Shown: in pieces, positions 1 to 64,000 of the stretch
How positions within the stretch are numbered: position 1 is the first letter of the stretch
Layout of the letters: each line of letters begins with the position of its first letter
From: a virus
Taxonomy: Duplodnaviria; Caudoviricetes
Direction: 5' to 3' (one strand)
IMG/VR virus record: IMGVR_UViG_3300033070_001583
Span: 1-64,000 of that record
DNA length: 64,000 bases
Position numbers and translations under genes: made by a program
The notes under the pieces: model-generated
The model's input: only the letters and a program-made list of their open reading frames with translations
What the model was told of the DNA's origin: nothing
Databases searched by the model: none

Positions 1-224
1 TTTGAGATTACGTTACAGAGCAAGTCATCGCCAAGATCAAGAGTGATCTTTTTATAAAAAGTTGAGTAACACGATCCACAGGCGCCGTGAGACTCGAGCT
101 TTTCTAGATCATATTGATCTGTACACGCATATCCGCAGTGCTTGCACATCAGCGTTTGGCACCGTGGTGCATCGATATAGTGAACAGTATGCTCACCATA
201 TCTCCTCTTCTCAATCGTTTGCAT
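1..224 (-). CDS. Partial small Zn-finger-like protein, runs off the left edge; absent from the ORF track
   Basis: ATG at 224..222 reads MQTIEKRRYGEHTVHYIDAPRCQTLMCKHCGYACTDQYDLEKLESHGACGSCYSTFY..., two CxxC pairs. Its ATG overlaps the TTA ending the upstream gene (TTATG). Confidence 0.6.
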   Translation of the reverse strand, partial: MQTIEKRRYGEHTVHYIDAPRCQTLMCKHCGYACTDQYDLEKLESHGACGSCYSTFYKKITLDLGDDLLCNVIS

Positions 225-3200
225 AATCCAATGTAATTCACATATGAGTCTTTTTCATGCTTTGAAATCTCAATGCAAGAGTCGACCGCGTCTTTCATCT
301 GTTCAACGTGAGAGACAACGATTAGAAATCTGAATCTTGATGCGATTGAACGCAAGAGTCTAATGCAAGAGTCGACTCCCGCAGGATCTAGTGTACCGAA
401 TCCTTCATCGATAATCATGAAGTCTGGCTTTGGAAGAATCGAGATTCCATGCAGTACTGTGCGTATTGCAATCGACGCAATCGTTCTCTCCATACCTGAG
501 CTCAGCTCAATGACTCTTCTTGAGTCACCGTAATTGATGTAAATTTCCAGAGAGTTAGTGTCTCCATCTGCCTCAAGATCGATTGTGAAATCAACAATTC
601 CAGCAAGAAGATTTGAAATTTCAGCGTTAACGATTGGCAATTTCTCGCGAACGAGGAGAGATGGCACTCCTTTCTTTGAAAACGCTTTGCTAACGTATTC
701 TCGTAGTATCAGCTGCTTCATGAGGGGTTCTTTTTTCGAGTACTCATGAGTCAGCAATTCAAGCTTTGCTTCAACGCGTCCAAGTTCTTTTTGCGCATCG
801 GCGTGTCGATTCTTCGCAGATTTGACATCTGCTTGCATCTTCGCCATTGTTAGACTCACTGCGTGAGTGTCTCCACCATCAGAAACATCTCCGAGGAGCT
901 CCAATTCTTTCTTGATTCCAGCAAGCTTCGACTTCATGTTATCAAGAGCGATTCTGTTTGAATCAGCAGTACGTTCGGCAGCGAGAATTTTACCCTTCGC
1001 AGAATCGTGTTCCTTCAACAGGATCACTGGATCGCCGCCCGGCGCTGGAATCTCGAGTTGTTTGATAAGATTCGCAATTCTCTCTTGTTCGTCAACGAAA
1101 TTCTTGTTTGCCTGAATTACTGCGTCTTTAATGAACTGACACGATGAAAATTCACCATTTCCTCCACACGGTACTTGCTTCAATCGTACTTTTGAAGTCT
1201 GTGCGAGATCGATCGCAGCTTCAATCTGACGGTAATCGCTTCTTGCAGATTGAAGCTGCGATCTTCTTGTCTGCTCTGCTGTTAGTCTCGCAAGAAGATT
1301 TTCGACATTCACACCATCAATTTCCTTACGCTTCATTTCGATTGCTTCAACAAGCTTCATCAAAGATGCCTCTTGCTGCTGAATCGAAGTAGTTAGAGAC
1401 GCCAAATCTGATGAGAGACTTGCATGTTTTGCTTTCTTCAGTTCGAGAGCAACAACATCTCCAAATTCACGCTTTGTTCTCTCTACGAAATCTGAATACT
1501 CGCGCTCAAGTTGCGAAAGTGTAACGTTCTCAATCTCTACTCTGTTTGTCGCATCCGTTATTGCATCAGACGTTGCAACGATATCTTGAGCAATTTTGAA
1601 TGTATCGTAATTCCCAATCGAAATCCTCAGTTTCGTACACTCGTTCTTCAGTGCATCGTGAAGCTTATCGAAATATCCAAGATCGAGATATCTCGAGAGG
1701 TACGTCCACCTAGCTGTAGAACCGTCTTTGATCAGCTTTGATATATCATCTTGAGTTGACACGGAAGTCGTGATAAAGTCATCCTGCGTACCAATCAGCA
1801 GTCTGATCATTCTATCTGTATCTGACCGTTGCTCACCAGTGAGCTGAGTTTCAATTCCATCCCTGTAGTGATGTACATCAACTTTCGTTGGAGCGCCGAC
1901 AAGACCTTTCTTTTCTGAAAATATTTTTGTTGTCTGACGCGAAATTGTAAGATTATCAGCATCATTCAGCTTCAATTTCATGAGCACATCACATCCTGAT
2001 TTACGGATGTTGACGATATGCGCATTTTTCACAGATCCCCTGTCTGTGCCATTGTACAGAGCGTAAATCAGAGTTCCTATAATAGAAGACTTACCGGCTC
2101 TGTTCGGAGCAAAGAGTCCAACAAGTCCAGAGAGTTTCGAAAAATCGATTCGATTTCCTTCTCCGTACCCAAATGTATTGTTGAATTCGAGATCCTCAAC
2201 GGTCCATGTCATCCCAACAGGACTGTCAGTCACGCCAATTGTGGCCTGAGCCTTCTTGATTGTATCGTATACGTCCTCACGAGAGAATTCTGAACGATCG
2301 TATTCGATTACAAGGTCAGTAAGTGTATTTGCATCTCTGTAATTTGTCCTGCTAAGATTTAGCGCAGCTGATTTCTGTTTTGGCTGTTCCTTTTCTGACT
2401 TGAAAGTAATTTCGATAGGATCAGAAACATGCTTTACAAGAGATGCAATGTGACGAGCGTTATCGCTGACAGTAATCTTGTCGATTCTGAATCGCGATTT
2501 TGGAGGATACTGTTTGATCTCGCTTACGAATGATTCTTCATCTCCCGTCCACGGTATCGTAACGTATGGATGATCATTTGCAATCTTGTGAAAAGTACAA
2601 GTCCACTTTGATTTCGATTCGATATCCCACAGAAGAAATCCGTGATCCTGGACATCTTCTCCGTAGTTCTGCTGTACCGTGCTACCAGGATACGCGATCC
2701 ATGGCATAGAGTCGCCATCATCACTCGTCTTGTAGCCAAGAAATTGCTGCTTATGGATGTCACCAAGCAAAGCAATGTCATATTCTGAGAAGAACCTCGT
2801 GTCGATGCTGCCATGCATTGGGATACCTGTTTCGAGACGGCATCCATCAACTGCTCCGTGGTAACAAGCAATGTTAAATGCATTGGGATCTGGCTTTACT
2901 GTATCCCAAGATTTTGTATCAAAGAGGCTGTACACGCACCATTTTACTGGCGTGCCGTCTTCTAGAGAGAATTCAGCATCGTAAGTTCCCGAATCTTTGT
3001 ACAGCTCAATGTTCTTACCAGAAGTCTTGATAAGATCAACGATTGGTGTAACGGCGTCGAGACGACTGAAATTTGAGAGGTTGCCATCGTGATTACCAAG
3101 GATCATCACAGTTGGCGCGCATGCTGTGAGTTTATCAATCCAGATTGACAGTTCCCTGATATACTCAGGGGATATCCCAGCAGTCTTTGTGTGAAAGATA

Positions 3201-3331
3201 TCGCCGCCAACGAAAATTCTGTCTACTTTAAGACGTTTTGCCTCCTCGCAAACTCGATCGAATACCGTTCTGTACTCATCGTGCCGGCTTTGACCTCTGT
3301 AGTGTACATCGGCAATGTGCAAAATTCTCAT
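224..3331 (-). CDS. sbcCD: Fused SbcD/Mre11 nuclease + SbcC/Rad50 ATPase, 1035 aa with TTA stop (track ORF ends at 149)
   Basis: Phosphoesterase motifs HIADVH, GGDIFH, GNHD, LGDIH; Walker A APNRAGKSS; coiled coil with central Cys pair; signature LSSGME; Walker B IIDEGFGTLD; H-loop VSH. First in-frame TTA at 226..224. Confidence 0.9.
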
Positions 3332-3366
3332 TTTCTACATCCAATCCTATTAATCTTTTGATCCTT

Positions 3367-9085: not shown

Positions 9086-9090
9086 TAAGT

Positions 9091-9807
9091 TAAGATTCCC
9101 TTCACAATGTTGATTCTAAACTCTTTTGTCGCGCCTGATTGCAAACCAGTAACCTTTGCGTACGTTGATATCACGTTTTTGTCTGATACTGTTCCGTAAA
9201 CGTTGAACTGTGCATTCGTGATCGATTTCACAGAAAGAGTAAACTGAAGCGTCGATCCCTGGAACGCGTTCTCCCCAGCTGATCTTGGGAGAATGTATTT
9301 TGCAGTTTGTCTTGAGTCGATCGAATCAGGTGTACGACGGAAGATTCCGAGGAACAGATTTGAGATTTCGACACTGAAATTCTGATCTCTCAGCTCTACG
9401 TCGATTGTCTGCTCATCTTGAATTGTCTGCTCAATCGAAATCTTTGCTCCGCGTTGTCTCAGTGATCCGAGCGAGATAATGTTTGAAGTACCATTCACAT
9501 TCGAATCTCCAGAAAGAGAGAACGTTGGCAATCTAACAAGATTTGGATTGCTCACAGTAATGAGTCTATTCTTGAACGCCTGCGCTGACGTTGTAATCGC
9601 TTCGAAAACCGGAGTGTTCTTTTCGATTTTTTCTCTTCCGACAGTTCTGCCGTATCGTTTGATGATTGTGTAATCAACTTCATCATCACCAAAAGCGAAC
9701 TTTTGGATTCTGAAACTACCATCATTTGCTGCAATCAGAGCGCGACCTGCGTCTGTTAGCACAGCATCGAGGATAGGGCTGTTCGTTGAGTTGTCGATTA
9801 GTCCCAT
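9091..9807 (-). CDS. Virion structural protein with tail-collar-like N-terminus, 238 aa with TTA stop
   Basis: ILDAVLTDAGRALIA...IQKFAFGDDEVDY. Ends ATC TTA ACT TAA. Confidence 0.65.
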
Positions 9808-9822
9808 ATGTGTAACCTAAGA

Positions 9823-11595
9823 TAAGATAGTTTCCTGCGTCGAATTGAAAATTGGCTTCGTAACATCTTTTAGGGTTATCTTTACATCTGCCGATTTTTG
9901 CACGTCTGTGTTCACAAACGAAAGCGTGTATGATGTTCCGGCGTTTTCTGTCGACCAAGCTTTCAAGTCATTTCCCTGCACGTCTGTCACTTTTGAAATC
10001 TTCGGGCAGAGATACAGATTGAATGATCCTTTTCTCTTTATCTTAACAGAATCTATGAAAGCATCTCTGTTGAGGAAAAAATTTGGATATGCTTTTGGAG
10101 CTCCAGAACGTGAGACATAACGTTTTATGACTTTCCTCGTCATTGAATCGATCTCTATCTCATGCTGTACTGAGTATCCAGAGGTGATCCCATGCACGTC
10201 GATTGATACAACTGCATACGTGTAGATGCTAGACGGTTCGAATTGGCCGTCCTTTGCGAGATGAGGACCCTTGAATTCTGTATCGATCCACATCGTTACA
10301 GGGGAACTCACTTTCTTCACAAATTTGCTATCTGTACCCTCTGGATTCGTAGCATAATGCGGGCCATGATCGTACTCTTGCATGAGAGTGAATGGCTCAT
10401 TAATATTCGAGCGTCGAAACACTTGGAATCTTGAAATATCTCTCTGAGGATTGTACGGGTAATCCCATGTCAAAACAAGTCCACCAGCATCGGGATCCCA
10501 GATGAATTGTAGATCACCCGGAGGAGGTGGCGGTACATCCTCTGTCGTAAGCACATCTGTATAGACAGGACGAGATGATACAAATAGCTTCGCTGATTTT
10601 TCAACGCCCTCGACCGTCACGGCAACTGTTGCCTTTGCGATCGCCCTCACAGAGTACGTGTATGTAACTCCGTACTTGATTCCTGTATCGAGATAGGTGC
10701 TTATTCTCGATCCATTGATTATTCTCGAGAATATTTCCTTGTACTCTACTCCAATTTTTTCGTATTTCGAAAGAATATATCCAACCACCTGAGATTCCAG
10801 AATCGAATCTGAACTCTTTCTTTTTAGACCGTATGCTGGCTCTCCAAGATGCACTGGTGAGACATCGGCGCGTGATTGATTTGTGTTCAGATCGTACTTA
10901 CTCGTTATTGATTGCGTTTGCTCTCTCAATTTATTTGGATCGAGCATGATGGCTGCAGACAGAGCAGAAGCGTGTTCTTTCTTTACGATGAACGTCAGTT
11001 CTGGAGCATCCTCGGGCCGTGCAAGAACACCGTGAGAGGCTGGACCGGAAGATTTGCCACGATCTAGTTCTCTTGGTGTATCTCTGAATGAAATGTTCGA
11101 ATTTGTACGTCTATCTGACATGTAGTCAGTTATGAATGTCTGATCAACACCAGATCTCGTCGAGATATCTTTTGAAATATCTCGACGAGATGTTTTATTC
11201 TCCGTTTGAACAGACAGAATCGATCCAGAGACGACAGAGCGTACTTTTATGTCGAATTCAGGATCTCTAAAGCCAACATGAGTAAAATTTCCACTGCAAA
11301 CATCATCTTCGTAAACAATGCTATCTTTATGCTTGTCTAGTTCTGGATCTGCACGACCTGAGCCAGCAATCGCAGACCATGAGATGAGTACAGTTCTAGG
11401 AAGTCTTTTATTTGCATAATCTACAGTGCTAACGTCCGGGGCAACTGACTTGTATTTTTTGTTAAACTGAGTCGATTCAGAATCGTTCGTCAACTCATCT
11501 TCAGCGAAGTAGTTGTAATCGAAAGATGCTGTGAGATTATCTACTTCGGGAACATCGAATACAGCAACTCTATCTTTTGAAAATACGATCGTCAT
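9823..11595 (-). CDS. Virion protein with FnIII/Ig-like domains, 590 aa with TTA stop
   Basis: PPPPPGDLQF...LVLTWDYP...FQVFRR...YTYAVVSID is FnIII-like. Ends ATC TTA TCT TAG. Confidence 0.55.
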
Positions 11596-14500: not shown

Positions 14501-15176
14501 TTATGATGTTAGCGATTGCGTTCTTAAGAGTTGTACCTCTTAGCTCGACGTTATCTTCTAGAATCGAATACAAAGTATCATCGAGATCGATCTGCTGTTC
14601 CATCAGATTTTGGATATTGTGACCGATTCTTGCCTGGGAGAGAGAAATTGCAGATACGCTCAACACGTTCGAGAGTTGCTTTCCTGTTTCGATCGCTCTT
14701 TGAAATCTCTCTCTGTCGCTTCGAACTATATTTGCAGCAGCTTCGCTATACTTTGAGTGAGACTTGTCTGCCTCTGCACGAGACCACCTTGTAAATTTCA
14801 AGAGATTCTGTTTATCTCTCAGGTATTTTCCAAAGAGTGTCAAGTTTCCAGAATCAGTATAAACTGGTCTGTATTTTGCAAGATATATGATCTCTGGCAG
14901 TATCTGTGATGTCGAATCGACAGCACCATACGTGCTAAATGTTGATTGTACCCTCGGCGGATCCTGTGAGGGTTCAGGAATGAGATCTTTTGGACGGATA
15001 TCTGGCTTCTCTGCTGTTGGTGCAGGAATTCCTTCTTTATTTTTACCCTTCGCCTGTGCAGATGTACCGTCTTTCACTTTCTTGGGAGGAGGCTTCTTTG
15101 CGTCCTGTTTTGGAGGCGAGCTCTGAGTCGGTTGCTGATTGATTTTTGTCGATACATCGCTGAGTGGTTTCTTCAT
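11592..15176 (-). CDS. Large hypothetical, probably virion, protein (1194 aa)
   Basis: Long ORF inside the structural block, ATGA-coupled on both sides. No recognisable catalytic motif. Confidence 0.6.
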   Translation of the reverse strand: MKKPLSDVSTKINQQPTQSSPPKQDAKKPPPKKVKDGTSAQAKGKNKEGIPAPTAEKPDIRPKDLIPEPSQDPPRVQSTFSTYGAVDSTSQILPEIIYLAKYRPVYTDSGNLTLFGKYLRDKQNLLKFTRWSRAEADKSHSKYSEAAANIVRSDRERFQRAIETGKQLSNVLSVSAISLSQARIGHNIQNLMEQQIDLDDTLYSILEDNVELRGTTLKNAIANIIKDLGNVRNLRVLYSNWISSVPSDSAGTAVYRRSLSALTQEIGRKDTRRAFAWLEDRDPSIETQDCYDKLKFIASPSIQNAISILNGQTNIKSVYSPFLSSISTIQDAYTKFSSQRKIASILFGIEKELKYSRLILDGKNATRLQSDFNFVAQQTGNQNFPQAVTGVSESFVGYTNSFVNSKALDSITLRPTAKVGIAAFESDYQSVAGGYLTPAPIYYTDSLISQFAGITKDDNVSAYRDDIKSVQDAFVAHCAEVDVFTTKLKKNRHKSASDLYNDFVLHLLVRPEELQGKTTELPDDDLDRYSVSNFAKKSISDPLCAVFNLATQDPKLLAMLCTYTVIRSYEDLSIYASNFSDKTTQQNQQQTGYQALSTSTTSAAAGKLLDSIVTRVSEYVQANRGNSAGNSGSVLNSIGDVALKESLADVKSPIFFTACELVRDFIKKLDGDERSSTALLKTRRTAFGYLSDLDMASAYFYAFALFVSTHVGSDIAGTVQKTPTTAADQNAHESKKKKKNNYNPAQEKPVDQNTTVYSITQPKFDITSSRRNVLQDIKTLKTREIAHHIFPLVCINTVLDSINLAIGTFRNNKKEFQKIVDTIGADGFYKIFDEQQISLVRERFDRYAVRMRLDSGTTPVIIQETHPKDFDFALLQAKQPIRRHPTADNARLMQIGFPRGFSKFSANSDRDKSGRVGQNQKDIIRIAVTRTDLELPNVVFKPLYRTYELSRFVDWEFLERSKSPNDVQTTDFAVSHTGKKLVTAGDRAFSDQSYGFLSQQEKNSLMRSHLEDIELRYYVSMTIGVDINEDEYPDISKTSQIIPYVQESVTERENSEKVKNTSSPPDRPTPKITEDTVSRAEKKVLDKGGTASNDLDNNVNEFLERFNRFGEHTDATNFLKRYFVASRFDRVFSIIVDPNEFVVDETKTKISDSDMDHLVKSGKLEISKDGTVRVGTIPGDVSYETYTISAEFVR

Positions 15177-17323
15177 AATTCAGCACCAACTATTACAGGT
15201 TCGGTTCTCACTTCTTTTCCCAACTCGTAGTCATCATAAACAGGTCTCAGACCGAAGATCATCTGACCGACATGATCGTCAGATATTACAATATCAAAAC
15301 TCTGTTGGAGATTCGACGTAGCTGATCCAATCAGTTCCCTCAGCCCTCCGTCGTATCTGTATATTTGAATGTGATCGATGAATCTTGATCGAGACGTATT
15401 GCTTAGTTCCCACGAGATTGTAATTTTCTTTTTCTTCACCACCACGCGGGATGACAAAATTGTCGGTCTGATATCTGGAATAGTGATTTCGAAGTACTCC
15501 TCTTGACCGACCCTTCCGTATTCGAATTGACTCGAGCCAGAATTTTTCGATCTAGTGGCTGCAGAGGCAATCGCTCCAGTTCTCAGTGTAGTTGGATGCA
15601 GATGCACAGACGGTTTCTGCTTGTACACTCTGCCTCTGTACGTTTTCTCCACCTCTAGTGTATCGTAAAGCGTTGATGCATCTCTCAACATTGGACAAAT
15701 AGAGTACACATACTTTCTACCAGCTTTCAGTGGAGAGAGCTGTAGCTTTGCCGCAAGCGATTGATCGTCAAACGTTCCACCCGCGATTATATCGAAACAA
15801 GCTCTCTCTCCAGTGAGACAATCTACTCTTGTAATGTCATAAGCAATCAGCTTTTTTAGCTTATCGCGGTCAGACATGGACTCGTTTTCGTATAGAGTAG
15901 ATTTTCCCTGCTGGGCAATCAGTTGCGCAACAATATCGGATTGGTTTTGTTGTATCTCTATTGAAACGTCGAATGTTACATTCGGTCCAGATTCAAGAAT
16001 ATCTGCTTTTTCATTTTCGACCCTGATATCAAGTTTTGTCTCAGGTACTGGAAGATGATAGTGCGGATAGCTTCCCGCAGTTCTCATTACTCCATTCACA
16101 GTGTAATACCTGATTGCATACTCGTATGAATTCCACTGCTTGACATTCGTATCGTAAACAGATTCGTGATACGAAAAATCGCTGACAGATCTAAATTCAG
16201 AAACATATTCGAATTGATCTATCGAATTTAGTTTCCTCTTCACGATAGCAAATGAAACTGCAGATTTAGGGAGTCTAAACGTGTCAATTCTCACCCCTAG
16301 CGCGTCGTATTTCACCATGAACGACGGCTCAGAATCCTGTACATCGGTCGATATAACGCCACTACCAAAAATATTTTTCTTTGAACCTGCATAACCAACT
16401 GGTACGGCTCTGTATATCGTTCTTCCGTTCGAAACCGCTGAAACGATGAATCTAGCCATCCCATTCACGGCTGATTGCGACGTTATGAATGTGTAATCGC
16501 TCGCCTGGATGTCATCGAGTTTTCTAGAATAGAGCTCAAAACTTTCGATATTCTCTCTCTCTTTTGACGTGACATTTATTACGTGATCGCTTCCAATACG
16601 TCTAACGTCTACTGTAGGTTCAAGCTTAGGAGAAAGAAATTCAACGAGAGTAGCTTGGTGATTCACAACAATCTCGTATGAGTCTACGACGACGTTTCTA
16701 TCGTCCTTCGCGGAAATCGATATTGTAAAAGATTCCTTCCCATACTTGTAAAGTCTGCAGTGAGCGATTTTTGTCGTCTTTTCGTCTAGTACTGACACAT
16801 AGTGATCTGGTTCAAGATCAGAAGCGCTTTTTACTGAAACTATATTTGCAGACGTAACTGCGTCATCAATTCCTGCGAGACTTATTAGAGACTTTGGTCC
16901 GGTCGGAACAACACTTGTACCCTTTCTCGCAGCTGCAATCGAGATAATTTTCTTTGATGAAAACGTTGATTTTGCAGGATCAATCTGTGAATCGATTACT
17001 TTTTTTGAAAGGAGAGGATTGTTCTGTATCTCATACGATGCTGATGTCACCGGAAATGTGTGAGTCAACTGAAAATTTGCTGGTAGCTCTGCGGCTTGTG
17101 TTGCTTTGTAAACTTTTTTTGTGATTGTTTCAACAGAGCACTGTCTCTTCTCGTCTCCTCCTATGATCTCTGCAGAAATAGTACCTGTAAACTTCGAAGC
17201 ATTCGATAGCTTTACGTTCAACGAGTAAACCGTAACATCACGAGAGCGATTATACGATTCAATCTCGTAAGAATCTTCGTCGATCACAAAAATCTGTTGA
17301 CGCTTAATCTTTATGGGAATCAT
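15173..17323 (-). CDS. Virion protein with beta-sandwich/Ig-like repeats (716 aa); second half of the 999-aa track ORF
   Basis: ATG at 17323, three nt after an in-frame TTA. Beta-rich pattern with YEYAIRY and YVYSICP motifs. Confidence 0.6.
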   Translation of the reverse strand: MIPIKIKRQQIFVIDEDSYEIESYNRSRDVTVYSLNVKLSNASKFTGTISAEIIGGDEKRQCSVETITKKVYKATQAAELPANFQLTHTFPVTSASYEIQNNPLLSKKVIDSQIDPAKSTFSSKKIISIAAARKGTSVVPTGPKSLISLAGIDDAVTSANIVSVKSASDLEPDHYVSVLDEKTTKIAHCRLYKYGKESFTISISAKDDRNVVVDSYEIVVNHQATLVEFLSPKLEPTVDVRRIGSDHVINVTSKERENIESFELYSRKLDDIQASDYTFITSQSAVNGMARFIVSAVSNGRTIYRAVPVGYAGSKKNIFGSGVISTDVQDSEPSFMVKYDALGVRIDTFRLPKSAVSFAIVKRKLNSIDQFEYVSEFRSVSDFSYHESVYDTNVKQWNSYEYAIRYYTVNGVMRTAGSYPHYHLPVPETKLDIRVENEKADILESGPNVTFDVSIEIQQNQSDIVAQLIAQQGKSTLYENESMSDRDKLKKLIAYDITRVDCLTGERACFDIIAGGTFDDQSLAAKLQLSPLKAGRKYVYSICPMLRDASTLYDTLEVEKTYRGRVYKQKPSVHLHPTTLRTGAIASAATRSKNSGSSQFEYGRVGQEEYFEITIPDIRPTILSSRVVVKKKKITISWELSNTSRSRFIDHIQIYRYDGGLRELIGSATSNLQQSFDIVISDDHVGQMIFGLRPVYDDYELGKEVRTEPVIVGAEL

Positions 17324-17326
17324 CTT

Positions 17327-18172
17327 TAACTCACTGAATTCGAGACAAAAAATACGAACGAAATTGTTGCAACCATTCGCGTCAGTGAACGTTTTCCCTA
17401 GGAATACAATCAATGGATTTTCAGAAAAGACTCTTGCCTGGAGCTTCGAGATATCTCCTCCGGAGTACTCGTAACTCTGCATGATGATATTTCCCTCAAC
17501 TGTTGTCGGATCGAATACGATCCGTTTTGAAGGATACGATTTCATCTCCAACCTAACATCTTTGACTGTTTTCTTTCTTGTCGCCTCGCCACTCGGTTTG
17601 TAAACACCTAGCTTGTCTCCATCGCGATCAATTGGTGGCATGTAACTGAAGTTATCGAGTGTTGACATGTCAGGATCTTCAAAGAGAGAATCGTGATCTT
17701 CAATCTTTTCTACTACGTTGTAACTTACTGGGCTCTCTTGAGTAACTGTGAACGAAACATTAGACGGACCTGCAGCAAAGCCATCGTCTCCAAAATCTTT
17801 GTTGACTGTCATCAAAATTCTTTGACGAGAGAGATTGACAGATGGCAACGCTGTCAGTTCATCAGTAATCGAATCGAGAGATCCTGTACTAAAGATTCTC
17901 GATCCAACGAGGTTAAACGTCTCTGACTTCAACGGAGCAAGCTTTCCGGAATCGTCTGACTCTAGAGTCACGAGATCGTGCGGAGAGCTGCCTTGTTCTA
18001 TGAATGCTAGACCTGCTACATCGTATGAGCCAGATACTGGAGCCGAGTAAACAACTCCGGTATCTGTCACGCTGGCATAGGAAATTTTGAAGGTACCAGC
18101 AGCAAGCTGCTTTCTTCCCTCGCTTGTTATTACTACATCTGCGATCTGAGATGCTGGATCAAGAATTCCCAT
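17327..18172 (-). CDS. Virion protein, N-terminal paralogue of 9091..9807 (281 aa, TTA stop)
   Basis: MGILDPASQIADVVITSEGRKQLAAGTFKI resembles MGLIDNSTNSPILDAVLTDAGRALIAA. The only in-frame TTA of the 999-codon ORF is at 17329..17327. Confidence 0.65.
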
Positions 18173-18181: not shown

Positions 18182-19564
18182 TTACAATATCTCGCTCGCA
18201 AGAGTTGCAAGTTCTGAACGTACTCCTCTTATGAGAGATGCATGGGCAGAGATCTTCTTCCCTGCGAATCTGTCTACGACAATTGAAAGACCGCACGTTT
18301 TTGCATTCACGTGAGGATTATCAATCTGAGACATGTCTCCCATGAGAATTACCTTCGTGCCCTCTCCAGCTCGCGTGATAATTGTCTTGAGCTCGTGAAT
18401 TGTCAGATTCTGTGCTTCGTCGACAATGAAATACGAGTTTGTAATAGATCTTCCACGTACGTGTGAGATTGCTGCGATTTCGATTGTACCGTTATCAATC
18501 ATCAGATCCACGTAGGGGTCACCCGTTGTTACCTGAGAAGAGATACCATACGAGTTTTTGCCGTCCCTTCCAGACTTGGTCTGGCCACCTTTGCGTTCAT
18601 TCTTGGAAGAGTTCGGAAGTAGCTGAACGAGGTTATCCTTGATCGATCCAATCCAGGGCATCATCTTCTCCTCGATTGTACCCGGGAGGTACCCAATGTC
18701 TTTTCCAACGGGAATGACCGATCTTGTCACAATGAGCTTCTGATATACAGCTTTCTCGCCATGAGAAAACTTGTTCAGCTGACCTAGGCCGGCCGCTAGG
18801 GCAAGAAGAGTCTTGCCAGATCCAGCGGCTCCAGTCATCAATACAAGAGAGACATCTGGATCCGTCAAAACATCAAGAGCGTACCACTGCTCTTTATTCT
18901 GACCGGAGATATTGAACACCTTTTGCTGTTTGAGCGTTTCTAGCTTCCCATCTTTCCATCTGCAAAGCATCGTAGCAGAATTTGCTTCGTTGATCGCAGT
19001 CACGAAGTCATTTCCAACTGTCTCAATCGGCCAGTTTGAAGTGTCGAGAAACTTCTGTCTGCACAGAGTTTCGAACTCAGTCGGCGCAAGAAAAACGCTA
19101 TCGTCAGCTTTGACTGGAGTTGGGTCTTTCTTGTAAACGCCAGTTGCACTTTTGAAATCCTCAGATGTGATTCCAAGAGCTGCTGCCTTGACTCTAAGGT
19201 TCGCATCTTGGGTTACGAGGATAGGACAGTCAATCCCTGATGTTATTACAGCTTCAATGATCTTGTTGTCATTTTTCGTAAAATCAAGCTGATTCTCATC
19301 AAGCTGCTTTCTTTGAGTAAGAATGAACCTAAGTTTTCCACCTTCCGGAGTTGTAAGTTCACTTCTATTTTTCCCACGTGTGAGCTCATCAAGATTTCTG
19401 ATCACTGTGCGAGCCAGCAATCCGACATCGTCTTGCCGCGATTTCAAGTGATCGAGCTCTTCAATAACAACAAGAGGAATGTATACGTCGTGCTCTGCAA
19501 AACACGCATATCCCTCAGGATTAGTGATGAGAACGTTTGTATCGAGCACGTAATTTTTCTTCAT
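18182..19564 (-). CDS. phoH: PhoH-family ATPase with N-terminal PIN domain
   Basis: YVLDTNVLI (PIN), GAAGSGKT, RGRSI, IVDEAQN, GDMSQID. Confidence 0.92.
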   Translation of the reverse strand: MKKNYVLDTNVLITNPEGYACFAEHDVYIPLVVIEELDHLKSRQDDVGLLARTVIRNLDELTRGKNRSELTTPEGGKLRFILTQRKQLDENQLDFTKNDNKIIEAVITSGIDCPILVTQDANLRVKAAALGITSEDFKSATGVYKKDPTPVKADDSVFLAPTEFETLCRQKFLDTSNWPIETVGNDFVTAINEANSATMLCRWKDGKLETLKQQKVFNISGQNKEQWYALDVLTDPDVSLVLMTGAAGSGKTLLALAAGLGQLNKFSHGEKAVYQKLIVTRSVIPVGKDIGYLPGTIEEKMMPWIGSIKDNLVQLLPNSSKNERKGGQTKSGRDGKNSYGISSQVTTGDPYVDLMIDNGTIEIAAISHVRGRSITNSYFIVDEAQNLTIHELKTIITRAGEGTKVILMGDMSQIDNPHVNAKTCGLSIVVDRFAGKKISAHASLIRGVRSELATLASEIL

Positions 19565-20140: not shown

Positions 20141-20485
20141 TAAGTCTTGTTTCTTTTTCTTTTTCGCTATTCTTGGATGACGACCCTTTGTTCTCCGCTC
20201 TGCAATGTCGTCTTTCAACGTAAGAGCGTCTTTTCTCATCACACCAATGTATTTTGAGAGATTTGCAAGAACGCGTCTGTATCTTACGATCGTGGGTATA
20301 TCGCCTCTTCCATTAAGAGAAAGTACAACAAGACGTTTTACTTCCCTTGCTGTTTGAACAAGCTTCTCGGCCTGCTCCAGTGCATGCTCTGCTAGAGCTG
20401 TATCAATAGGCGGCTGAGTGTCATAGAACGTTGGATCCGGATCTTCTTCTTCGACAATCTCTTCTTTTGGATCTTCATTTTCCAT
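20141..20485 (-). CDS. Hypothetical protein, acidic N-terminus and basic C-terminus (TTA stop)
   Basis: Ends CAA GAC TTA TAA; start overlaps the ClpP stop. Confidence 0.6.
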
Positions 20486-22079: not shown

Positions 22080-23108
22080 TAATATCTTCGAGACGAACTG
22101 CAGTGCAAATATTTTTTCGCTTGCAAGAGATGCGATATACGGATACACTTTCGTACCATCGCTCGAACAACCTGATGATATGCAAGCAGACAGTTCTCTT
22201 ACGAACTGAGAGAGCTTATTTGCAATTCTTCTGGAGGACGTTATGATCTCAAATCGTTTTGACGACAACCTTGATAGTCTAGTATCAATCAGCTTTACAC
22301 CATCCTCTGTGGAACTAGCTCGTCTCTGCATTAGGTCTGATATCAGCGATCCTGAGGATTTAATCCCAGCTTCAGATTCTATCTCGACAGAATTCTCGCA
22401 AGTACGGATTGCTTCAACAGCAGTCAGAGAAGACGGGTCAATCGTGATAAGAAGCTCACCGGTGTGATAATTTCTGATCGAAGCTGAGCATGATGTTGCG
22501 ATATCTCCGATCGTTGCGATATTACCAACGTCAGTTGACACTGTGTGAATCCAAAGATTTTTGCAACGCTTCAGATCTTGTATTGCTTCTTTTGATATTC
22601 CTCCGCAGAATACATGAAGTTTTGACTGAGATAGCAAATTTGTGAATCTCGACAGCTCAGATGCAGACTCAATGTACCCATCGTACGGAAGCACGAACGC
22701 ATTTGTACACTCTTCTCCTGAAGATATCACGCTGCACACAGGAAACTTTGCACATGTGTACTTTCTACAAACGATAGATTGCTTCGTATGATCGACGATA
22801 ATGTGTACACGGTACCCGTACGGTACGCGAGAGAAGATGTCTGATATCATTTCAGCTTCAGTCCCGCTGAAATGAGTACGTACGAGGGAGTTCATATGAT
22901 CCTGAGAGAATCTCATCTGCGCTCCTTTCCCCTGCGCAGATACGACGCCTGGATACAATTTTTCAAGATTTGAAAGAGTAGACTGCTCTCTTTTATCAAA
23001 AAGAGAGAGTGCAACTAGCAAATCAGACGTGAGTTCATCTCCGGGTGTACGGATCAGAAATCGATCATCAAATCTAATTTGAGCTCTTTCTTTAAGAGAT
23101 TTAATCAT
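22080..23108 (-). CDS. Divergent GroEL/Cpn60 apical-domain-like protein (342 aa, TTA stop)
   Basis: FVLPYDGYIESASEL, TIGDIATSCSASI and KLIDTRLSRLSS resemble GroEL segments ILL.DKKISNI, LQDIATLTGGTV and KLQERVAKLAGG. No GDGTTT motif. Confidence 0.5.
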
Positions 23109-32293: not shown

Positions 32294-32653
32294 ATGAAGA
32301 AAACATTTCACGATATCTTCTCTGATCAGTTGAGACTCATTCTTGGAAAATACAGAGATGATCGTCTCAACGATTCAACATGCTCACTGATCTATCAGGA
32401 CATCTATCAACAGTTGCTTGAGGTTCTCAAAGGTTCGTCTCTCAACGTGCATCAAGACACCGTGAACTGGCTTTCACAGCAGTATTATGACGGTATCAAG
32501 ATAAACGGTAATAGCTCGCTGAATCCTAACATCTTTACAAAGAGACCGAATCTTACAGATCTTCCTACAAAAGATCTTGTAGTCCTGCTTGCAATGACGC
32601 AAAAGACAGGTTTTGCTCGCGATGTTGCAGAGGAGCTCAAAAAGCGTGGATTA
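32294..32653 (+). CDS. Hypothetical protein (119 aa, TTA stop)
   Basis: Ends EELKKRG then TTA at 32651..32653, the reverse complement of the convergent gene's TAA. Confidence 0.65.
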
Positions 32654-44518: not shown

Positions 44519-46353
44519 CAACATCAGATACAAAAACACAGCAAGTACGCCAGCGAACGTATCTGAACAGAGACTTCGCGACAAACAGGAATGCAATTGT
44601 CAATTACGCAAGGAAGTACTACCCAACAAAAATTCAAGATCTATCTGAAACAGGTGTTGGAGGTCTTCTTGTAGATATGGCGGCAGTCGTAGGAGACAAT
44701 CTAAACTTCTATCTCGATTTCCAGTTCTCAGAACTCGATATCGATACAGCAGTAGAAAATGTCAACATTGAACGTGCTCTTAGGAACTCTGGCGTTCCAA
44801 TTTCTGGTGCGGCGCCGGCGATTGTACCAGTTGATATTACGTTCGAGATACCGGCAGTAACGACAGGTGGAAAATCTGAGCCAGATACGACTGCACTTCC
44901 AGTACTACAAACTGCAGTAATTGCTAGCGATTCTGGAGTGCAGTTCAATCTATTGGAATCCATAAACTTTACAACAAGAAACGCAGATGGTACTCTTGCA
45001 GCATCTGTTTCAATACTGAAAACATTCCCTGATGGAACAATTAAAAGCTACGCTATCACGAAAAGAGGAACAGCACTCTCTGGAAATATAACGACAGAAA
45101 CTGTTGTCATCGGTTCAAACTTCGTGCCATTCAGAAGAGTTGCTCTCTCGCAGAAAGATATTTCAGAGATTATCAGCGTGCAAGATGATCTAGGAAATGT
45201 GTATTACGAAGTAAAAGATTTGAGTCAAGATACCGTTTTTGTTCCTGTTACGAATACGTCGTCTGACTCGATGGAGGTACCGTCAAGCCTGAAAATGATA
45301 TCTGCACCGTACCGTTACACAAAGCAAGTTGAACTTTCGACTCGATCTACTGTTCTAACTCTCGGTGGCGGTAATGCAGAAACATTTGAGGATGACGTAA
45401 TTCCAGATCCATCGGACATAGCGCTTCCGTATCAGTACAGATCTAGCTTCCCGATTGAGCCAATCGATCCGAATTCTTTGCTAGCAACGAAGACTCTTGG
45501 AGTATACGCCGTCAATACAAACCTGAACGTGACGTACAGGTATGGAGGAGGATTGAATCACAATGCAATCGCAAATTCAATCAGATCTGTCGAAACATTT
45601 CAGCTTACGTTTCCTGGAAATCCTTCATTCTCGGTTTCAAGGAGCGTGAGAGCATCGATTAAATGTAACAACCCTGTTCGCGCAAGAGGCGGTGACGATG
45701 CTCCTTCTATCGATGAGCTGAAGTCTGTTGTTGGCGCATATAGGAATTCGCAATCGAGAATCGTGACTGCAAGCGATATGCTGGCCAGAGTGTACACGCT
45801 CCCATCAAATTTTGGACGTGTGTACAGGGCCGGAATCAGATCGTCATCTAATTCTCCATTTGCAACAAAACTTTACATCATCTCTAGGGACGGAGATGGT
45901 AAGCTCGCTGTATCAAGTGATACACTGAAGAAAAATCTAAGAACGTATCTCAACCCGCAGAGACTGATAGGAGATGCAGTCGATATTCTTGATGTGAGCA
46001 TCGTAAATCTGAAAGTCGAATTTGATATTTCAACCGATTCAATATCGAACCGTCAGGTTGTGATCCAGTCAGTCCTCAAGAATTTGAAAAAGTTCTTTGA
46101 CACAAAGAACTTTAACGTAGATCAGCCGATCATCATCACTGAGGTATCGAAAGTCATCTCGATAACGCCTGGTGTCATATCTGTAAATCAGATCAAATTT
46201 TCTGAATTGCAGGGATTCATAAACAACAGAGAATATCCTGGTTCGTCTTTCGATGTTGCCGGATCAACGAAGCGAAACATTTTGTACCCGCCAGAGGGCG
46301 GAATGTTTGAGATAAGATATCCAGACACTGACATTATTGGAAGAGCAGAATTA
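44515..46353 (+). CDS. Baseplate wedge protein, gp6/baseplate-J-like (612 aa, TTA stop)
   Basis: YLNRDF, LNFYLD, YRYGGG, RIVTASD; ends YPDTDIIGRAE then TTA-A-ATG of the next gene. Confidence 0.85.
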
Positions 46354-56799: not shown

Positions 56800-57960
56800 A
56801 TGCCAACGTATAAAGGATCTATTGAGCATCTGTTTGCCGTGATACCGACAATATCGGGAACGATTCAAGCAATGTTCAAAGTCACATATGACTTTCTGAA
56901 CAGCGGATCTGATCTCGGGATTCAGAGACTTGCATATAACACCGGGACTCGACCGAGCGACTGCGGACAAACAGGTACGAATTTTTATGATCAGAATCAG
57001 CCGTTCGGAGATAATAGCTGGGCGTGTTTTAGATTTGCGTCTGCTTCTGTTCCATTCGACATTCTCATACAGTACTCTGGTACGGGAGTAACATTCGGTA
57101 ACACGACGAACGATCATGCGAAAATAGGAGGTTCTGCAGCTGCATCACAAAATAATTTTGGAATTGCTGTTGCGACTGCATTTAGCGGATCGACGGCAAT
57201 CGACCCGTGGAACGGAACGACAACGCTAAGCGGATCTGATCGAAAGGGTACGGCGGTCTGGACAAGCGGATCTGCAACAAATAGATTGTCTGTATTTCCA
57301 CGCTCTAATGCATTTGGAGGATCGTTTGTTACAACAAATGACGATATGGTCGCATTCGTATTTCAGTTTTCGACTTCGGCTCCGCACAGATATCAAATCG
57401 TTGCAAGCAAAGATTCAATCTATATCGCACGTGATCAGTGGGATGACTCTGCATACGATAAATTTTTCTATGCTGGATCGTATAATCCGATTAGCGGAAG
57501 CTCTCCTACTGTACCATTTGTTGTTTGGTCTCCCCTTACGACGAATGAAACTGCTGGTACTCAAATACCAGCAACGACGGTTGGAACGTCGTACTCTACA
57601 GACGGAGGAATAGCACATCCGCTTTTTGTCGATACGAAATTTCTATCTATTGATCGTCTTTCGTATTTTAATCAAACAACTGCGTTGCAACCGAATAACT
57701 CTTTCTCTCCAACACAATACGATGAATTTCCGATCTACGTTGGAATGAACGAAACGACATCATCGTACGGAATATGCGGCACGCTAGACTTTGTACGCGA
57801 AATATACAAAACGAATGTGCACGATATCAATAACGTTACACAAAGGGCCGTACTAGGATCAGACTCATCTGTTTCTTCGATCAAGCACTCAATCCCATGG
57901 GTTAGCGGAACGACTCCAGGAACAGGTACAACTCGCGCAGGAGTTCAATTCTCGAGGTTA
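56800..57960 (+). CDS. Putative tail fibre/virion protein (386 aa, TTA stop)
   Basis: Ser/Thr/Gly-rich; ends TTRAGVQFSR then TTA-C-ATG of the next gene. Confidence 0.6.
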
Positions 57961-57961: not shown

Positions 57962-58264
57962 ATGGCAGTAATCAATTCAAATTTTGCAGGTACACTCGGC
58001 ATTCAGCACGGGCCTAGAATCAGGGAACTGAATACTAATAAGCTTGTTGTAGAATTTAGTGGATCGATTCAATACGTAACGGTGACGTCTCCTCTCAAGA
58101 CGGTCTACAAGATGAAGGCATGGTCGAACGTAAGCAACCGTCACATTTATTGGGTTGCAACGTCATCGACGACTGGGCATCCTGTGTCTGGTTCAATGGC
58201 TGATACATCGCACGTTGTTGGTCATCAATCTCTTGACTTTACTGCGTTTGATATCACTCCATTA
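57962..58264 (+). CDS. Small virion-type beta protein (100 aa, TTA stop)
   Basis: TTA at 58262..58264 is the reverse complement of the convergent gene's TAA. Confidence 0.6.
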
Positions 58265-58717: not shown

Positions 58718-58718
58718 C

Positions 58719-59129
58719 TAATTCACCGGGAGTCATGTCAGGAGGTGGTTCGGGATAGAACCGCTTGCGCTTTTTCTTTTGATTTTTGGAAGCGCTATGA
58801 GGAGATTTTACGATGCTGATATCGAGTCTCCTTCCACACACATCAAGAGCTAGCTCTTCATTGTACCAGCCAATCTCTTTTTTATCTCCTTCGCCTCTCG
58901 ATAGCAAAAAAGCCTTCGTAATCTCGCCGCCCGATTGAAGTATGTCGATACCGATACCTTCGAATTCTTTTTCTTCGAATCCCTGAAGAATCACACGAGT
59001 CGTGTATCCCAAATCAGAGAATTTCTTGTCTGTCTTCTTACGAAGATATGCGTGTACGCTGATGACATCATCGACAAGACAAAGAATCGTGGGCTCGTGG
59101 AGAAGATTCCGAAATTTGTATGTGATCAT
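58719..59129 (-). CDS. Hypothetical protein (136 aa, TTA stop)
   Basis: GAA TTA G ATG junction with the next gene. Confidence 0.55.
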
Positions 59130-62773: not shown

Positions 62774-63040
62774 ATGGCAGCATTGGGAGATATTGTAAAG
62801 TTTACACTGACGGTTGAAAGTGCATTGCTCGACCGCCCTGCAATTGTGATGGACGCAATGGGCGATACACTTCAACTGATGGTGTTTGTTGACGGATTGG
62901 CTGATTCGACCGGTCTTGAAGAGAACGAAAAGATCGAAAATCAGCCTGCAGTTGGCGGAAATAACGTACCAGTCAAGTGCGTTATGAGATCATCTGTTTC
63001 AAAGAACCTCACGCAGACAGCCGGGTGCTGGCGTCCCTTA
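62774..63040 (+). CDS. Small phage beta-barrel-like protein (88 aa, TTA stop)
   Basis: RPAIV...LQLMVFVDG...SSV...GCWRP then TTA; I recall this phage family ending at G.W..P. Confidence 0.6.
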
Positions 63041-63060
63041 GACGCTAGAGAGTCTCGCTT

Positions 63061-63109
63061 CTTAAATGCACAATGGGACTTCGAATCGAAGTCCCATTGT
63101 GCATTTAAG
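63061..63109. terminator. Perfect 24-bp inverted repeat with 1-nt spacer; probable bidirectional terminator or cruciform
   Basis: CTTAAATGCACAATGGGACTTCGA-A-TCGAAGTCCCATTGTGCATTTAAG between convergent genes. Confidence 0.75.
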
Positions 63110-63113
63110 CCTC

Positions 63114-63962
63114 TAATCTGAACTTGCGTCTCTTACCCGTTGGATGAATCAGGATGAGATCATTCGAGAAACAGACAGATCCGTCAATCTGAGCTCCTTC
63201 TGGTATGACAGAGTCCAAATCGAGAGCGCATCCGCTTCCATCTGTCACGTCGCAGTAAATGTCCCAGCTGTAAGCGCAGGACCACTCTACGAATTCAGCA
63301 TCTGTGAGGTGATACTCATGCTTGTCTTGAAGCTTATTTAGCAGCACGTCAATCAGTCTGTTAAGCTTCGTTCCAGTCAGACGTAGCCCACTGTATGCCG
63401 CAGGGTCTCCAGCGAGATACGAGTCATTCGCGAGCTTATCTGTGTTCCTTCTTGTTGCAGGGACATATTGCGCATTTTTGAGACGGTCCGGAGGATTAAA
63501 CATATGCGTTGTCGCAATCCCACGACCAGAAGTTTTGAACTCAGGCACCCAGACAGTACCTGCCGGAGAGAGATAGTTCTGATGCGTCTCATACGTGCCC
63601 TTTGAGCGTGTTACTGAATCGATGAGACTGGAAAGCTTATTCAAGAAAGTTTCAGCAGGCAAGAGATCTGTTTCAAGATCTTGATTCATTGAAAAATTCA
63701 ATGTATATGAAACTTTGTCATAATTGCCAGCAGGTCTCTTCTCTTCAAATCCGGTGTGTAGGTAGTAAGTGTATCCTGCAGCGTCAAGAGCTTTATTTAC
63801 GATCTGTTGGAACGTGTTCTCGTCAATCGTAATGAGACGTTTCGGTAGTCTCTCGGCAGCTGCAAGAATCTCTTGAAAATACTTACGACGAGCCCATACA
63901 TCGTCTCCAGCTTGCCCAGGTGGTTCTGATTCGAGAATCAGATTCTTTAGTGTATGATTCAT
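63114..63962 (-). CDS. Hypothetical protein with LKNLILE N-terminus (282 aa, TTA stop)
   Basis: Ends ILIHPTGKRRKFR then TTA. Confidence 0.65.
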
Positions 63963-64000
63963 TTGTAGCTCTTCTTTCTTCCTGTTGGTGATGTAATCAC
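63959..64000 (-). CDS. C-terminal end of an upstream probable paralogue (partial)
   Basis: VITSPTGRKKSYK-TGA; ATGA overlap with the next gene. Confidence 0.6.
   Translation of the reverse strand: MITSPTGRKKSYK

What the first reader, a model, noticed from the sequence alone, without database searches (positions are those of the whole stretch)
1..64000. Unexplained UUA-termination machinery must lie outside this window or in the host
I recognised no release factor, tRNA or ribosome-rescue gene in the window, yet about a quarter to a third of its genes, both replication and structural, appear to end at UUA. Inference, three models: (a) a phage- or host-encoded RF1/RF2 variant with an altered anticodon-recognition loop (PxT/SPF), together with loss or cleavage of tRNA-Leu(UAA); (b) a host lacking tRNA-Leu(UAA), with stalling resolved by ArfB/tmRNA-type rescue; (c) U-to-A mRNA editing of UUA to UAA, which would equally purge internal TTA. 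A high-GC host where UUA is nearly vacant is a plausible route, but the host is unknown.
Basis: inference. Interest (0 to 1): 0.75.

Follow-up and report, generated by a model that had tools for sequence, protein, structure and literature searches.

The report
Phage TTA stop: machinery lies elsewhere
This T4-like giant phage ends about a quarter of its genes with TTA, normally a leucine codon. The window holds none of the parts needed for that, but sister phages show two of them: a tRNA set without a TTA reader and a tmRNA whose tag ends in TTA.

Summary
In-frame TTA is almost absent inside genes (0.25 per 1000 codons) but common in the last 25 codons of table-11 ORFs (10.7 per 1000). It sits where homologues and paralogues have TAA, TGA or TAG. 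It closes 15 of 57 window ORFs.

The window has no tRNA, tmRNA, release-factor or ArfB-type gene. Neither does the 75-kb contig, nor about 170 kb of DNA I read from the same clade.

- (c) RNA editing is refuted: out-of-frame TTA is abundant and lies on conserved Tyr and Phe codons.
- (b) tmRNA-type rescue is disfavoured: the tmRNA of two sister lineages ends its own tag frame ...ALAA-TTA.
- (a) is partly supported: sister lineages carry 31-32 tRNAs with Leu(CAA), Leu(UAG) and Leu(GAG) but no Leu(UAA), while standard-code relatives carry Leu(UAA).

Stop use in the window is TGA 30, TTA 15, TAA 11, TAG 1. This fits one RF2-type factor reading U-[A/G/U]-A. That factor was not found. It is probably the host's, or lies in about 90 kb I could not read. 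The host is unknown.

This scan has noted TTA stops in other phages before. I found no publication of such a change outside organelles.

The parts
1..64000 (.). Whole window. T4-like jumbo-phage DNA: replication genes, a glycan module, baseplate and tail genes. It holds no tRNA, tmRNA, release-factor or rescue-factor gene.
   Evidence: Pfam/PHROG.
224..226 (-). TTA that ends the fused SbcD-SbcC gene (codon 1036). The next gene's ATG overlaps it as TTATG (ATG at 222-224).
   Evidence: After the TTA the SbcCD frame diverges between 87-100% relatives, while the other frame is conserved as the next protein. Standard-code relatives stop 1-2 residues from this place.
9091..9093 (-). TTA two codons before TAA at the end of ORF 9085-9807.
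   Evidence: On its own it is ambiguous, because a standard stop follows closely.
9823..9825 (-). TTA two codons before TAG at the end of ORF 9817-11595.
15176..15178 (-). TTA as the last codon of ORF 15173-18172, in a TTATGA overlap with the next gene's ATG.
17327..17329 (-). The only TTA deep inside a window ORF of at least 150 aa. It is followed by AAG ATG, so the 999-codon ORF is best read as two genes of 281 and 716 aa.
20141..20143 (-). TTA directly before TAA at the end of ORF 20138-20485.
22080..22082 (-). TTA seven codons before TGA at the end of ORF 22059-23150.
32651..32653 (+). TTA ending plus-strand gene 32294-. The same three base pairs are the TAA stop of the convergent minus-strand gene 32651-33430.
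37063..37065 (+). TTA ending the PD-(D/E)XK nuclease gene 36244-. The Pfam profile ends at residue 267 and the TTA is codon 274.
46351..46353 (+). TTA ending the baseplate-J-like gene 44515-. The next gene's ATG is at 46355.
   Evidence: Two standard-code relatives end IIG/ILG plus 3 residues then a stop; this gene has IIG plus 3 residues then TTA.
57958..57960 (+). TTA ending gene 56779-. The next gene's ATG is at 57962.
58262..58264 (+). TTA ending gene 57962-. The same base pairs are the TAA of the convergent gene 58262-58717.
58719..58721 (-). TTA ending gene 58701-59129. The next gene's ATG is at 58715-58717.
63038..63064 (+). Two in-frame TTA (63038-63040 and 63062-63064) at the end of gene 62774-. 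The second abuts a perfect hairpin shared with the convergent gene.
63114..63116 (-). TTA ending the first paralogue (63105-63962) of a tandem array.
   Evidence: In four paralogues TTA lies 6-7 residues after the TG[K/R] motif, where five other paralogues have a standard stop.
18182..19564 (-). PIN_4 + PhoH (PhoH2-type) protein. It is the only RNA-nuclease-like gene in the window and a weak candidate for acting on host RNA. It is not specific to the TTA-stop clade.
   Evidence: PIN_4 E 2e-26, PhoH E 5e-42; full-length PHROG 2765; relatives at 28-40% identity in phages whose loci use TTA normally.

Best explanation
UUA is a true fourth stop codon for this clade of T4-like jumbo phages, and the apparatus is not in the window.

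Shown:
- TTA is kept out of gene interiors and stands at the homologous position of ordinary stops.
- In two sister lineages the phage supplies 31-32 tRNAs that read every leucine codon except UUA: Leu(CAA), Leu(UAG) and Leu(GAG), with no Leu(UAA).
- Standard-code relatives of the same family do carry tRNA-Leu(UAA).
- The sister lineages' own tmRNA ends its tag frame ...ALAA with UUA.

Inferred:
- With no decoder, UUA is recognised in the ribosomal A site by a class-I release factor of RF2 type whose second-position reading is relaxed to U-[A/G/U]-A. Organellar RF2 with its conserved Ser204 replaced is proposed to work this way.
- The factor is most likely the host's. The host would also lack an active tRNA-Leu(UAA) and make little use of RF1.
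- Failing that, the factor is encoded in the roughly 90 kb of the phage genome I could not read.
For: TTA as stop:
- Tail-versus-interior enrichment is 36-fold and frame-specific.
- Downstream genes start at TTATG or TTA-N-ATG.
- The major capsid protein of the same phage lineage reads ...LDMNII-TTA where relatives read ...LDMNII-stop. Two more genes behave alike.
- Of the 120 best capsid homologues listed (7,784 scored at E <= 1e-50), only this lineage's is 665 aa. All but one of the others are 625-647 aa (one is 1127 aa) and cover only its first 95%.
- The window's baseplate-J-like gene and SbcCD end at the relatives' stop position, or within 1-2 residues of it.
- Four of nine paralogues have TTA where five have a standard stop.
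- Some of this lineage's TTA align with TGA or TAA in a syntenic 255-kb relative, and six TTA are conserved there at gene ends.
- The trait is specific to the lineage: 44 relatives at about 50% terminase identity use TTA at 3-49 per 1000 codons, spread through their genes.

tRNA side:
- Standard-code relatives G004 and G005 each carry tRNA-Leu(UAA).
- The islands of the TTA-stop lineages hold Leu(CAA), Leu(UAG) and Leu(GAG) and no UAA anticodon.

tmRNA:
- Rfam RF00023 scores 109 bits, E 1.6e-42.
- The tag ends GCG GCG TTA in both lineages. The two differences inside the tag are synonymous, and indels begin right after the TTA.
- The standard-code relative's tag ends ...ALAA-TAA.

RF2-type reading:
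- Window stops are TGA 30, TTA 15, TAA 11, TAG 1. Relatives pooled are TAA 230, TAG 98, TGA 56.
- UUG stays leucine (10 per 1000 codons). This matches the published RF2 Ser204 route for UUA alone, not the mtRF1a route that takes both UUA and UUG (PMC12574857).

Host-encoded factor:
- No release-factor domain or GGQ context in about 170 kb of clade DNA (Pfam flags).
- None in the 201-kb and 267-kb standard-code relatives.
Against: - No release factor of any kind was seen, so its type and owner are inference only.
- The tRNA island and tmRNA come from sister lineages (60-90% protein identity in syntenic genes, about 82-85% DNA identity to one another), not from the window's own genome. A 3.7-kb fragment (L114) that may be the window's lineage shows only part of the island.
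- About 90 kb of the 255-kb relative was not read.
- The host is unknown, so absence of a host tRNA-Leu(UAA) is untested.
- The TGA-rich, TAG-poor stop usage could partly reflect composition or host bias rather than the release-factor set.
- A standard stop follows within two codons of 7 of 21 TTA stops, against 7 of 51 ordinary stops. This might hint at leaky termination.
Confidence: 0.55

Rival explanations
1. The phage brings its own UUA-reading factor, either a diverged release factor or a new kind of protein or RNA. It would be encoded in the unread part of the genome or among the many small orphan genes. This lets the phage impose the code on a standard-code host.
For: - The clade carries a near-complete tRNA set and a tmRNA, so it invests heavily in translation.
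- Orphan genes sit inside the tRNA island and have no homologue in standard-code relatives.
- About 90 kb of the 255-kb relative is unread.
Against: - No RF-1 or PCRF domain and no GGQ context in about 170 kb.
- Standard-code relatives of 201-267 kb have no release factor either.
- The 293-aa island protein models as an all-helical fold with no match to solved structures, unlike release factors.
Confidence: 0.2
2. UUA is merely unreadable because no tRNA exists for it. Ribosomes stall there, and the peptide is freed by a rescue path of ArfB type, or by mRNA cleavage followed by tmRNA.
For: - The phage tRNA set has no UUA reader.
- A phage tmRNA exists.
- From my own knowledge, ArfB is reported to act on ribosomes stalled within an mRNA.
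Against: - The tmRNA's own tag frame ends in UUA, so tmRNA cannot be what resolves UUA.
- tmRNA tagging would mark a quarter of the proteome, the capsid protein included, with an ...ALAA degradation tag.
- No ArfB or RF-1 domain was found.
- A standard-code relative has a tmRNA too, so the tmRNA is not tied to the code change.
Confidence: 0.1
3. The mRNA is edited from UUA to UAA, so the ribosome sees an ordinary stop.
For: None beyond the fact that editing would also explain the purge of in-frame TTA.
Against: - The purge is frame-specific: 15 in-frame TTA against 305 and 209 out of frame.
- Out-of-frame TTA lies on Tyr and Phe codons of terminase and capsid protein where relatives keep aromatic residues: Asn is seen 0 times, Tyr 87 times, and Phe in 44 of 44 at two sites. 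A frame-blind editor would wreck these proteins.
- The switch from tRNA-Leu(UAA) to Leu(CAA) points to decoding, not editing.
- From my own knowledge, no U-to-A editing enzyme is known.
Confidence: 0.01
4. TTA is still leucine, just a very rare codon tolerated only in dispensable C-terminal tails. The pattern would then come from gene calling or chance.
For: Several TTA lie only 1-3 codons before a standard stop, where either reading fits.
Against: - The 36-fold enrichment is unique to this codon.
- TTA matches homologues' stop positions exactly.
- Tails after TTA diverge or overlap conserved downstream genes.
- TTA is conserved, not swapped for other leucine codons, between lineages at 60-90% protein identity.
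- The tmRNA tag ends in TTA.
Confidence: 0.02

Closest known systems
UUA = stop in labyrinthulean (Thraustochytrium) mitochondria (NCBI table 23, number from my own knowledge) and in peDinoflagellate plastids (PMC12574857)
   Same: The same codon changes in the same direction, from leucine to stop. UUA occurs only where homologues stop, UUG stays leucine, and no cognate tRNA is supplied. The stop set is compatible with an RF2-type reader.
   Different: Those are small organelle genomes whose nuclear-encoded RF2 carries a Ser204 substitution. Here it is a jumbo phage of about 250 kb that translates on bacterial ribosomes. No release factor has been identified, the host is unknown, and the phage itself carries 31-32 tRNAs and a tmRNA adapted to the code.
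UUA/UUG = stop in mitochondria of Pseudoscourfieldia (Pycnococcus) and Marsupiomonadales; UCA/UCG = stop in Sphaeropleales (PMC6821328, PMC12574857)
   Same: These are sense-to-stop changes recognised by the same test: the codon appears only at 3' ends and there is no cognate tRNA.
   Different: They involve mtRF1a changes and take both UUA and UUG. Here UUG is an ordinary leucine codon with its own phage tRNA-Leu(CAA).
Stop-codon-recoded phages (TAG to Gln, TGA to Trp) with suppressor tRNAs, such as crAss-like and Lak phages (PMC7886860, PMC8346664)
   Same: A phage lineage departs from the standard code and carries a tRNA complement that matches its code.
   Different: Those changes run from stop to sense and rely on suppressor tRNAs. 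Here the change runs from sense to stop, there is no suppressor tRNA, and table 11 already leaves about 97% of the window in open frames.
Phage-encoded tRNA islands and tmRNAs of large phages
   Same: A large tRNA island lies next to a tmRNA gene, and a standard-code relative (G004) has a tmRNA as well.
   Different: The island omits exactly the UUA reader that relatives carry, and the tmRNA tag frame is closed by TTA instead of TAA.

Membership tests
Leu-to-stop UUA reassignment (table-23-type code) | UUA is absent from gene interiors, including conserved leucine positions | tested here: met
   0.25 per 1000 interior codons. The few interior cases are gene junctions or doubtful ORFs.
Leu-to-stop UUA reassignment (table-23-type code) | UUA stands where homologues have a termination codon | tested here: met
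   Capsid protein, orf140 and orf541; baseplate-J-like gene and SbcCD in the window; paralogue array; TTA against TGA/TAA in the 255-kb relative; tmRNA tag.
Leu-to-stop UUA reassignment (table-23-type code) | No tRNA cognate to UUA is available | tested here: inconclusive
   The phage tRNA islands of two sister lineages lack Leu(UAA). The window's own island was seen only in part, in a fragment not proven to be this lineage. The host tRNA set is unknown.
Leu-to-stop UUA reassignment (table-23-type code) | RF2 with an altered codon-recognition motif (Ser204 of SPF replaced) | not testable with these tools
   No release-factor gene was found in any clade DNA. The host is not identified. I had no way into candidate host genomes.
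Stop-to-sense recoded phages (TAG or TGA read as an amino acid) | In-frame TAG or TGA inside genes, and a suppressor tRNA | tested here: not met
   Table-11 ORFs cover about 97% of the window. No tRNA with anticodon CUA, UCA or UUA occurs in the islands.
Termination by ribosome rescue (tmRNA/SmpB, ArfA, ArfB) | A rescue factor is present and can itself resolve UUA | tested here: not met
   There is none in the window. A tmRNA exists in sister lineages, but its own tag frame ends in UUA.
T4-like (Gp23-type) jumbo myovirus | Gp23-family capsid protein, T4-type terminase, portal, sheath, gp13, gp25 and baseplate-J, primase, fused gp47/gp46-like SbcD-SbcC | tested here: met
   The nearest isolates have 39-41% terminase identity (Microcystis phage Mel-JY01, Flavobacterium phage immuto).

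The most novel reading that the evidence does not exclude
The code change is a takeover weapon. The phage infects a standard-code host, removes or outcompetes host tRNA-Leu(UAA), and runs translation on its own 31-32 tRNAs. It also supplies or retunes a factor so that UUA terminates. Host mRNAs, which contain internal UUA, would then yield truncated proteins, while phage mRNAs are read correctly.
Probability: 0.12. Interest if true: 0.95.

Novelty: new variant of a known kind. Interest (0 to 1): 0.8.

Why it matters
In the literature I could search, sense-to-stop changes of the genetic code are reported only for mitochondria and, since 2025, one plastid lineage (PMC6821328, PMC12574857). A phage clade that ends a quarter of its genes, and its tmRNA tag, with UUA implies a bacterial translation system that terminates at a leucine codon.

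The results turn the open question "who reads UUA?" into testable predictions:
- an RF2-type factor with relaxed second-position reading;
- little or no RF1 activity;
- no active tRNA-Leu(UAA).

There is also a practical side. Standard gene callers give these phages false C-terminal tails and fused genes. Examples here are the capsid protein called at 665 instead of 630 aa, the 999-aa and 879-aa fusions, and the 411-aa "RNase H".

Tried and rejected
- **Whole-record search of the 255-kb relative:** not possible, because the record is not held.
- **Finding the window lineage's own tRNA island:**
  - Two DNA patterns in viral contigs gave nothing.
  - Two protein scans of viral contigs gave nothing.
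  - A homologue search with the 879-aa ORF missed it.
  - The NADAR anchor gave a 3.7-kb fragment (L114) and a further sister lineage (L115).
- **Host identification:** capsid relatives in binned genomes sit in unrelated taxa (Phycisphaerae, Halobacteriovorax, Methylococcaceae, Flavobacteriales) and are probably mis-binned phage contigs. Relatives cannot be drawn for a virus record.
I could not test it. The tag's ANDNV start recalls, from memory only, myxobacterial tags, and a paper search for that tag found nothing.
- **The 293-aa island protein as a hidden factor:** it has no Pfam family. Its model has pLDDT 80, is all-helical and matches no solved structure. I rejected it as release-factor-like.
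- **The 90-nt tRNA-Ile(UAU) as a mutated tRNA-Leu(UAA):** rejected. Its D-arm is of the ordinary class-I type and it aligns poorly with Leu(UAA).
- **Backup stops after TTA:** only weakly enriched. An immediate stop follows 4 of 21 TTA against 5 of 51 ordinary stops.
- **PIN-PhoH protein as an anticodon nuclease:** kept only as a weak lead, because standard-code phages have it too.
Full report
**What the DNA is**

The window is the first 64 kb of a 75,153-bp IMG/VR virus record, estimated 21% complete. Its genes are a fused SbcD-SbcC, a primase, PIN-PhoH, ClpP, a run of glycosyltransferases with Glf and a radical-SAM enzyme, a late sigma factor, gp25- and baseplate-J-like proteins and tail fibres.

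Three short contigs at 87-100% identity continue the genome to the left. They carry terminase, portal, a Gp23-type capsid protein and sheath. The nearest isolates are Microcystis phage Mel-JY01 and Flavobacterium phage immuto, at 39-41% terminase identity. It is therefore a T4-like jumbo myovirus of roughly 250-350 kb.

**Is TTA a stop?**

Under table 11 the ORFs pack tightly and all end in TAA, TGA or TAG. TTA nevertheless behaves unlike any other sense codon.
- It occurs 15 times in frame against 305 and 209 times in the other two frames.
- It reaches 10.7 per 1000 codons in the last 25 codons against 0.25 per 1000 further in. That is a 36-fold ratio; the next codon reaches 2.5-fold.
- Downstream genes begin at TTATG (position 224) or one base after the TTA (46355, 57962, 58717).
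- The one deep TTA in a large ORF (17327-17329) is followed by AAG ATG, so that ORF is two genes.

Comparison with homologues is decisive.
- The capsid gene of the same lineage reads ...LDMNII-TTA, then 34 more codons. Relatives read ...LDMNII-stop. Two neighbouring genes behave the same way.
- Of the 120 best capsid homologues listed (7,784 scored at E <= 1e-50), only this lineage's is 665 aa. All but one of the others are 625-647 aa, one is 1127 aa, and they cover only its first 95%.
- In the window, the baseplate-J-like gene has IIG plus three residues then TTA. Two standard-code relatives have IIG or ILG plus three residues then a stop. SbcCD ends within 1-2 residues of its relatives' stops.
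- After the SbcCD TTA, that frame diverges between close relatives, while the other frame is conserved as the next protein.
- In the tandem paralogue array, four members have TTA where five have a standard stop.

The trait is specific to the lineage. Forty-four relatives at about 50% terminase identity use TTA at 3-49 per 1000 codons, spread through their genes. With TTA as a stop, the window's ORFs end TGA 30, TTA 15, TAA 11, TAG 1.

**Is any apparatus in the window?**

No.
- No tRNA or tmRNA and no Rfam family at gathering score.
- No RF-1 or PCRF domain in six frames, while controls ring.
- No release-factor-like GGQ context.
- No translation or rescue domain in about 58 ORFs scanned.

The only RNA-nuclease-like gene is the PIN_4 + PhoH protein at 18182-19564. 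Homologues occur in phages whose loci use TTA normally, so it is at most a weak lead.

**Looking outside the window**

I extended the lineage about 16 kb to the right and 4 kb to the left by exact-protein look-ups. Both extensions hold small orphan genes and no tRNA.

A metagenome scan with the RNase H gene found a 255,832-bp contig (ERZ869929) that is syntenic at 60-90% protein identity. In its conserved stretches TTA occurs in frame only 7 times in 2,989 codons. Six of those are the same TTA as in this lineage and lie at gene ends. Two of this lineage's TTA align with TGA and TAA there. Among 61 called genes, 14 TTA lie in tails and 10 further in. Of the interior sites, I inspected the two in the 879-aa ORF, which is two genes joined. 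The "411-aa RNase H" of this lineage is likewise two genes, which lie in different frames in the relative. The relative therefore shares the code.

**The tRNA island**

Standard-code relatives G004 (267 kb) and G005 (201 kb) carry 9 and 7 tRNAs, each set including tRNA-Leu(UAA), and no release factor.

The 255-kb TTA-stop relative has an island of 31 tRNAs with Leu(CAA), Leu(UAG) and Leu(GAG), but no Leu(UAA). A further sister lineage (a 42-kb contig, L115) has the same order with 32 tRNAs, again without Leu(UAA). A 3.7-kb fragment that may belong to the window's lineage shows the Thr-Pro-Tyr-Leu(GAG) part.

The clade thus supplies readers for every leucine codon except UUA, while its standard-code kin supply exactly the UUA reader.

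**The tmRNA**

A tmRNA gene lies next to tRNA-Leu(CAA) (Rfam RF00023, 109 bits, E 1.6e-42). Its tag frame reads ANDNVDASVPALALAA, then TTA, in both sister lineages.
- The two nucleotide differences inside the tag are synonymous.
- Right after the TTA the sequences differ by indels.
- The standard-code relative's tag is ANTDTYNDYALAA followed by TAA.

The canonical ...ALAA end is therefore closed by UUA. This is independent evidence, from an RNA gene, that UUA terminates. It also shows that tmRNA cannot be the device that resolves UUA.

**The three models**

- *(c) Editing fails.* The purge is frame-specific. Out-of-frame TTA lies on Tyr and Phe codons of terminase and capsid protein where relatives keep aromatic residues (Tyr 87, Asn 0; Phe 44 of 44 at two sites).
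- *(b) Rescue is weakened* in its tmRNA form. It survives only as ArfB-type release, for which no gene was found.
- *(a) Release-factor variant is partly supported.* The loss of the UUA reader is seen on the phage side. Stop usage shifts from TAA 60%, TAG 26%, TGA 15% in relatives to TGA 53%, TTA 26%, TAA 19%, TAG 2% in the window, and UUG stays leucine. This is the pattern expected of one RF2-type factor reading U-[A/G/U]-A. The published organellar cases of UUA-only termination are tied to replacement of Ser204 in RF2, while cases taking both UUA and UUG are tied to mtRF1a changes (PMC12574857; PMC6821328).

No release factor was found in about 170 kb of clade DNA or in the large standard-code relatives. 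I therefore favour a host factor (about 0.55), with a phage factor in the unread 90 kb as the main rival (about 0.2).

**What is known, and what the scan noted before**

Full-text searches found no report of a sense-to-stop change in a phage or bacterium.

This scan's earlier AI notes list TTA stops in several other phages, including one whose tmRNA tag ends in TTA. One note proposes a myxobacterial host with an altered release factor. I found the tmRNA result here before reading those notes. I could not test the host proposal.

**Limits**

- Gene calls are heuristic.
- The tRNA and tmRNA evidence comes from sister lineages, not from the window's own genome.
- The host is unknown.
- There are no RNA or protein data.

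Noticed in passing
L003:2501-6145 (same phage lineage, left of the window): The 1214-codon 'portal' ORF starts with a small upstream gene closed by TTA (codons 96 and 108). The portal itself carries an insert of about 380 aa (residues about 460-840) with an HNH endonuclease domain that relatives lack. It looks like an intein or a homing-endonuclease insertion.
   Followed up: partly
window 63105-64000, continuing to 70722 of the contig: Tandem array of nine to ten diverged paralogues of 220-285 aa on the minus strand, sharing a C-terminal TG[K/R] motif. They have no Pfam family.
   Followed up: partly
window 18182-19564 (-): The 'PhoH' gene is a PIN_4 + PhoH fusion (PhoH2 type), that is, a predicted RNA nuclease joined to an ATPase.
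   Followed up: partly
L109:7738-7812, L106:3781-3856, L106:6973-7048, L106:4296-4385: All three leucine tRNAs of the island are 75-76 nt and lack the long variable arm usual for tRNA-Leu. The D-arm of Leu(CAA) closely resembles that of the relatives' Leu(UAA). A 90-nt tRNA-Ile(UAU) has an odd extra segment of about 24 nt in its variable region.
   Followed up: partly
window (GC 0.43-0.50) versus L062, L071, L080, L115 (GC 0.52-0.55): The early-gene and tRNA region of the same phage clade is about 10 points richer in G+C than the structural and replication region.
   Followed up: no
window 63065-63104: A perfect inverted repeat lies between convergent genes. It looks like a two-way terminator, and the TTA of the plus-strand gene and the TAA of the minus-strand gene abut it.
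   Followed up: no
window, all genes: Codons ending in CC are rare (TCC, ACC and CCC about 4 per 1000, GCC 7 per 1000), as are CGG, AGG and GGG. AGA and GGA dominate their families. The cause is unknown.
   Followed up: no
window 149-3331 (-): SbcD (Mre11-like) and SbcC (Rad50-like) are fused in one gene of about 1035 aa. The standard-code relatives have the same fusion, with open frames of 1051-1061 aa.
   Followed up: partly
L109:14337-14813 and L115:10001-10480: A NADAR-domain gene sits in the middle of the tRNA island, alongside orphan genes of 293, 219 and about 175 aa. The two tested (293 and 219 aa) have no homologue in the standard-code relatives.
   Followed up: partly
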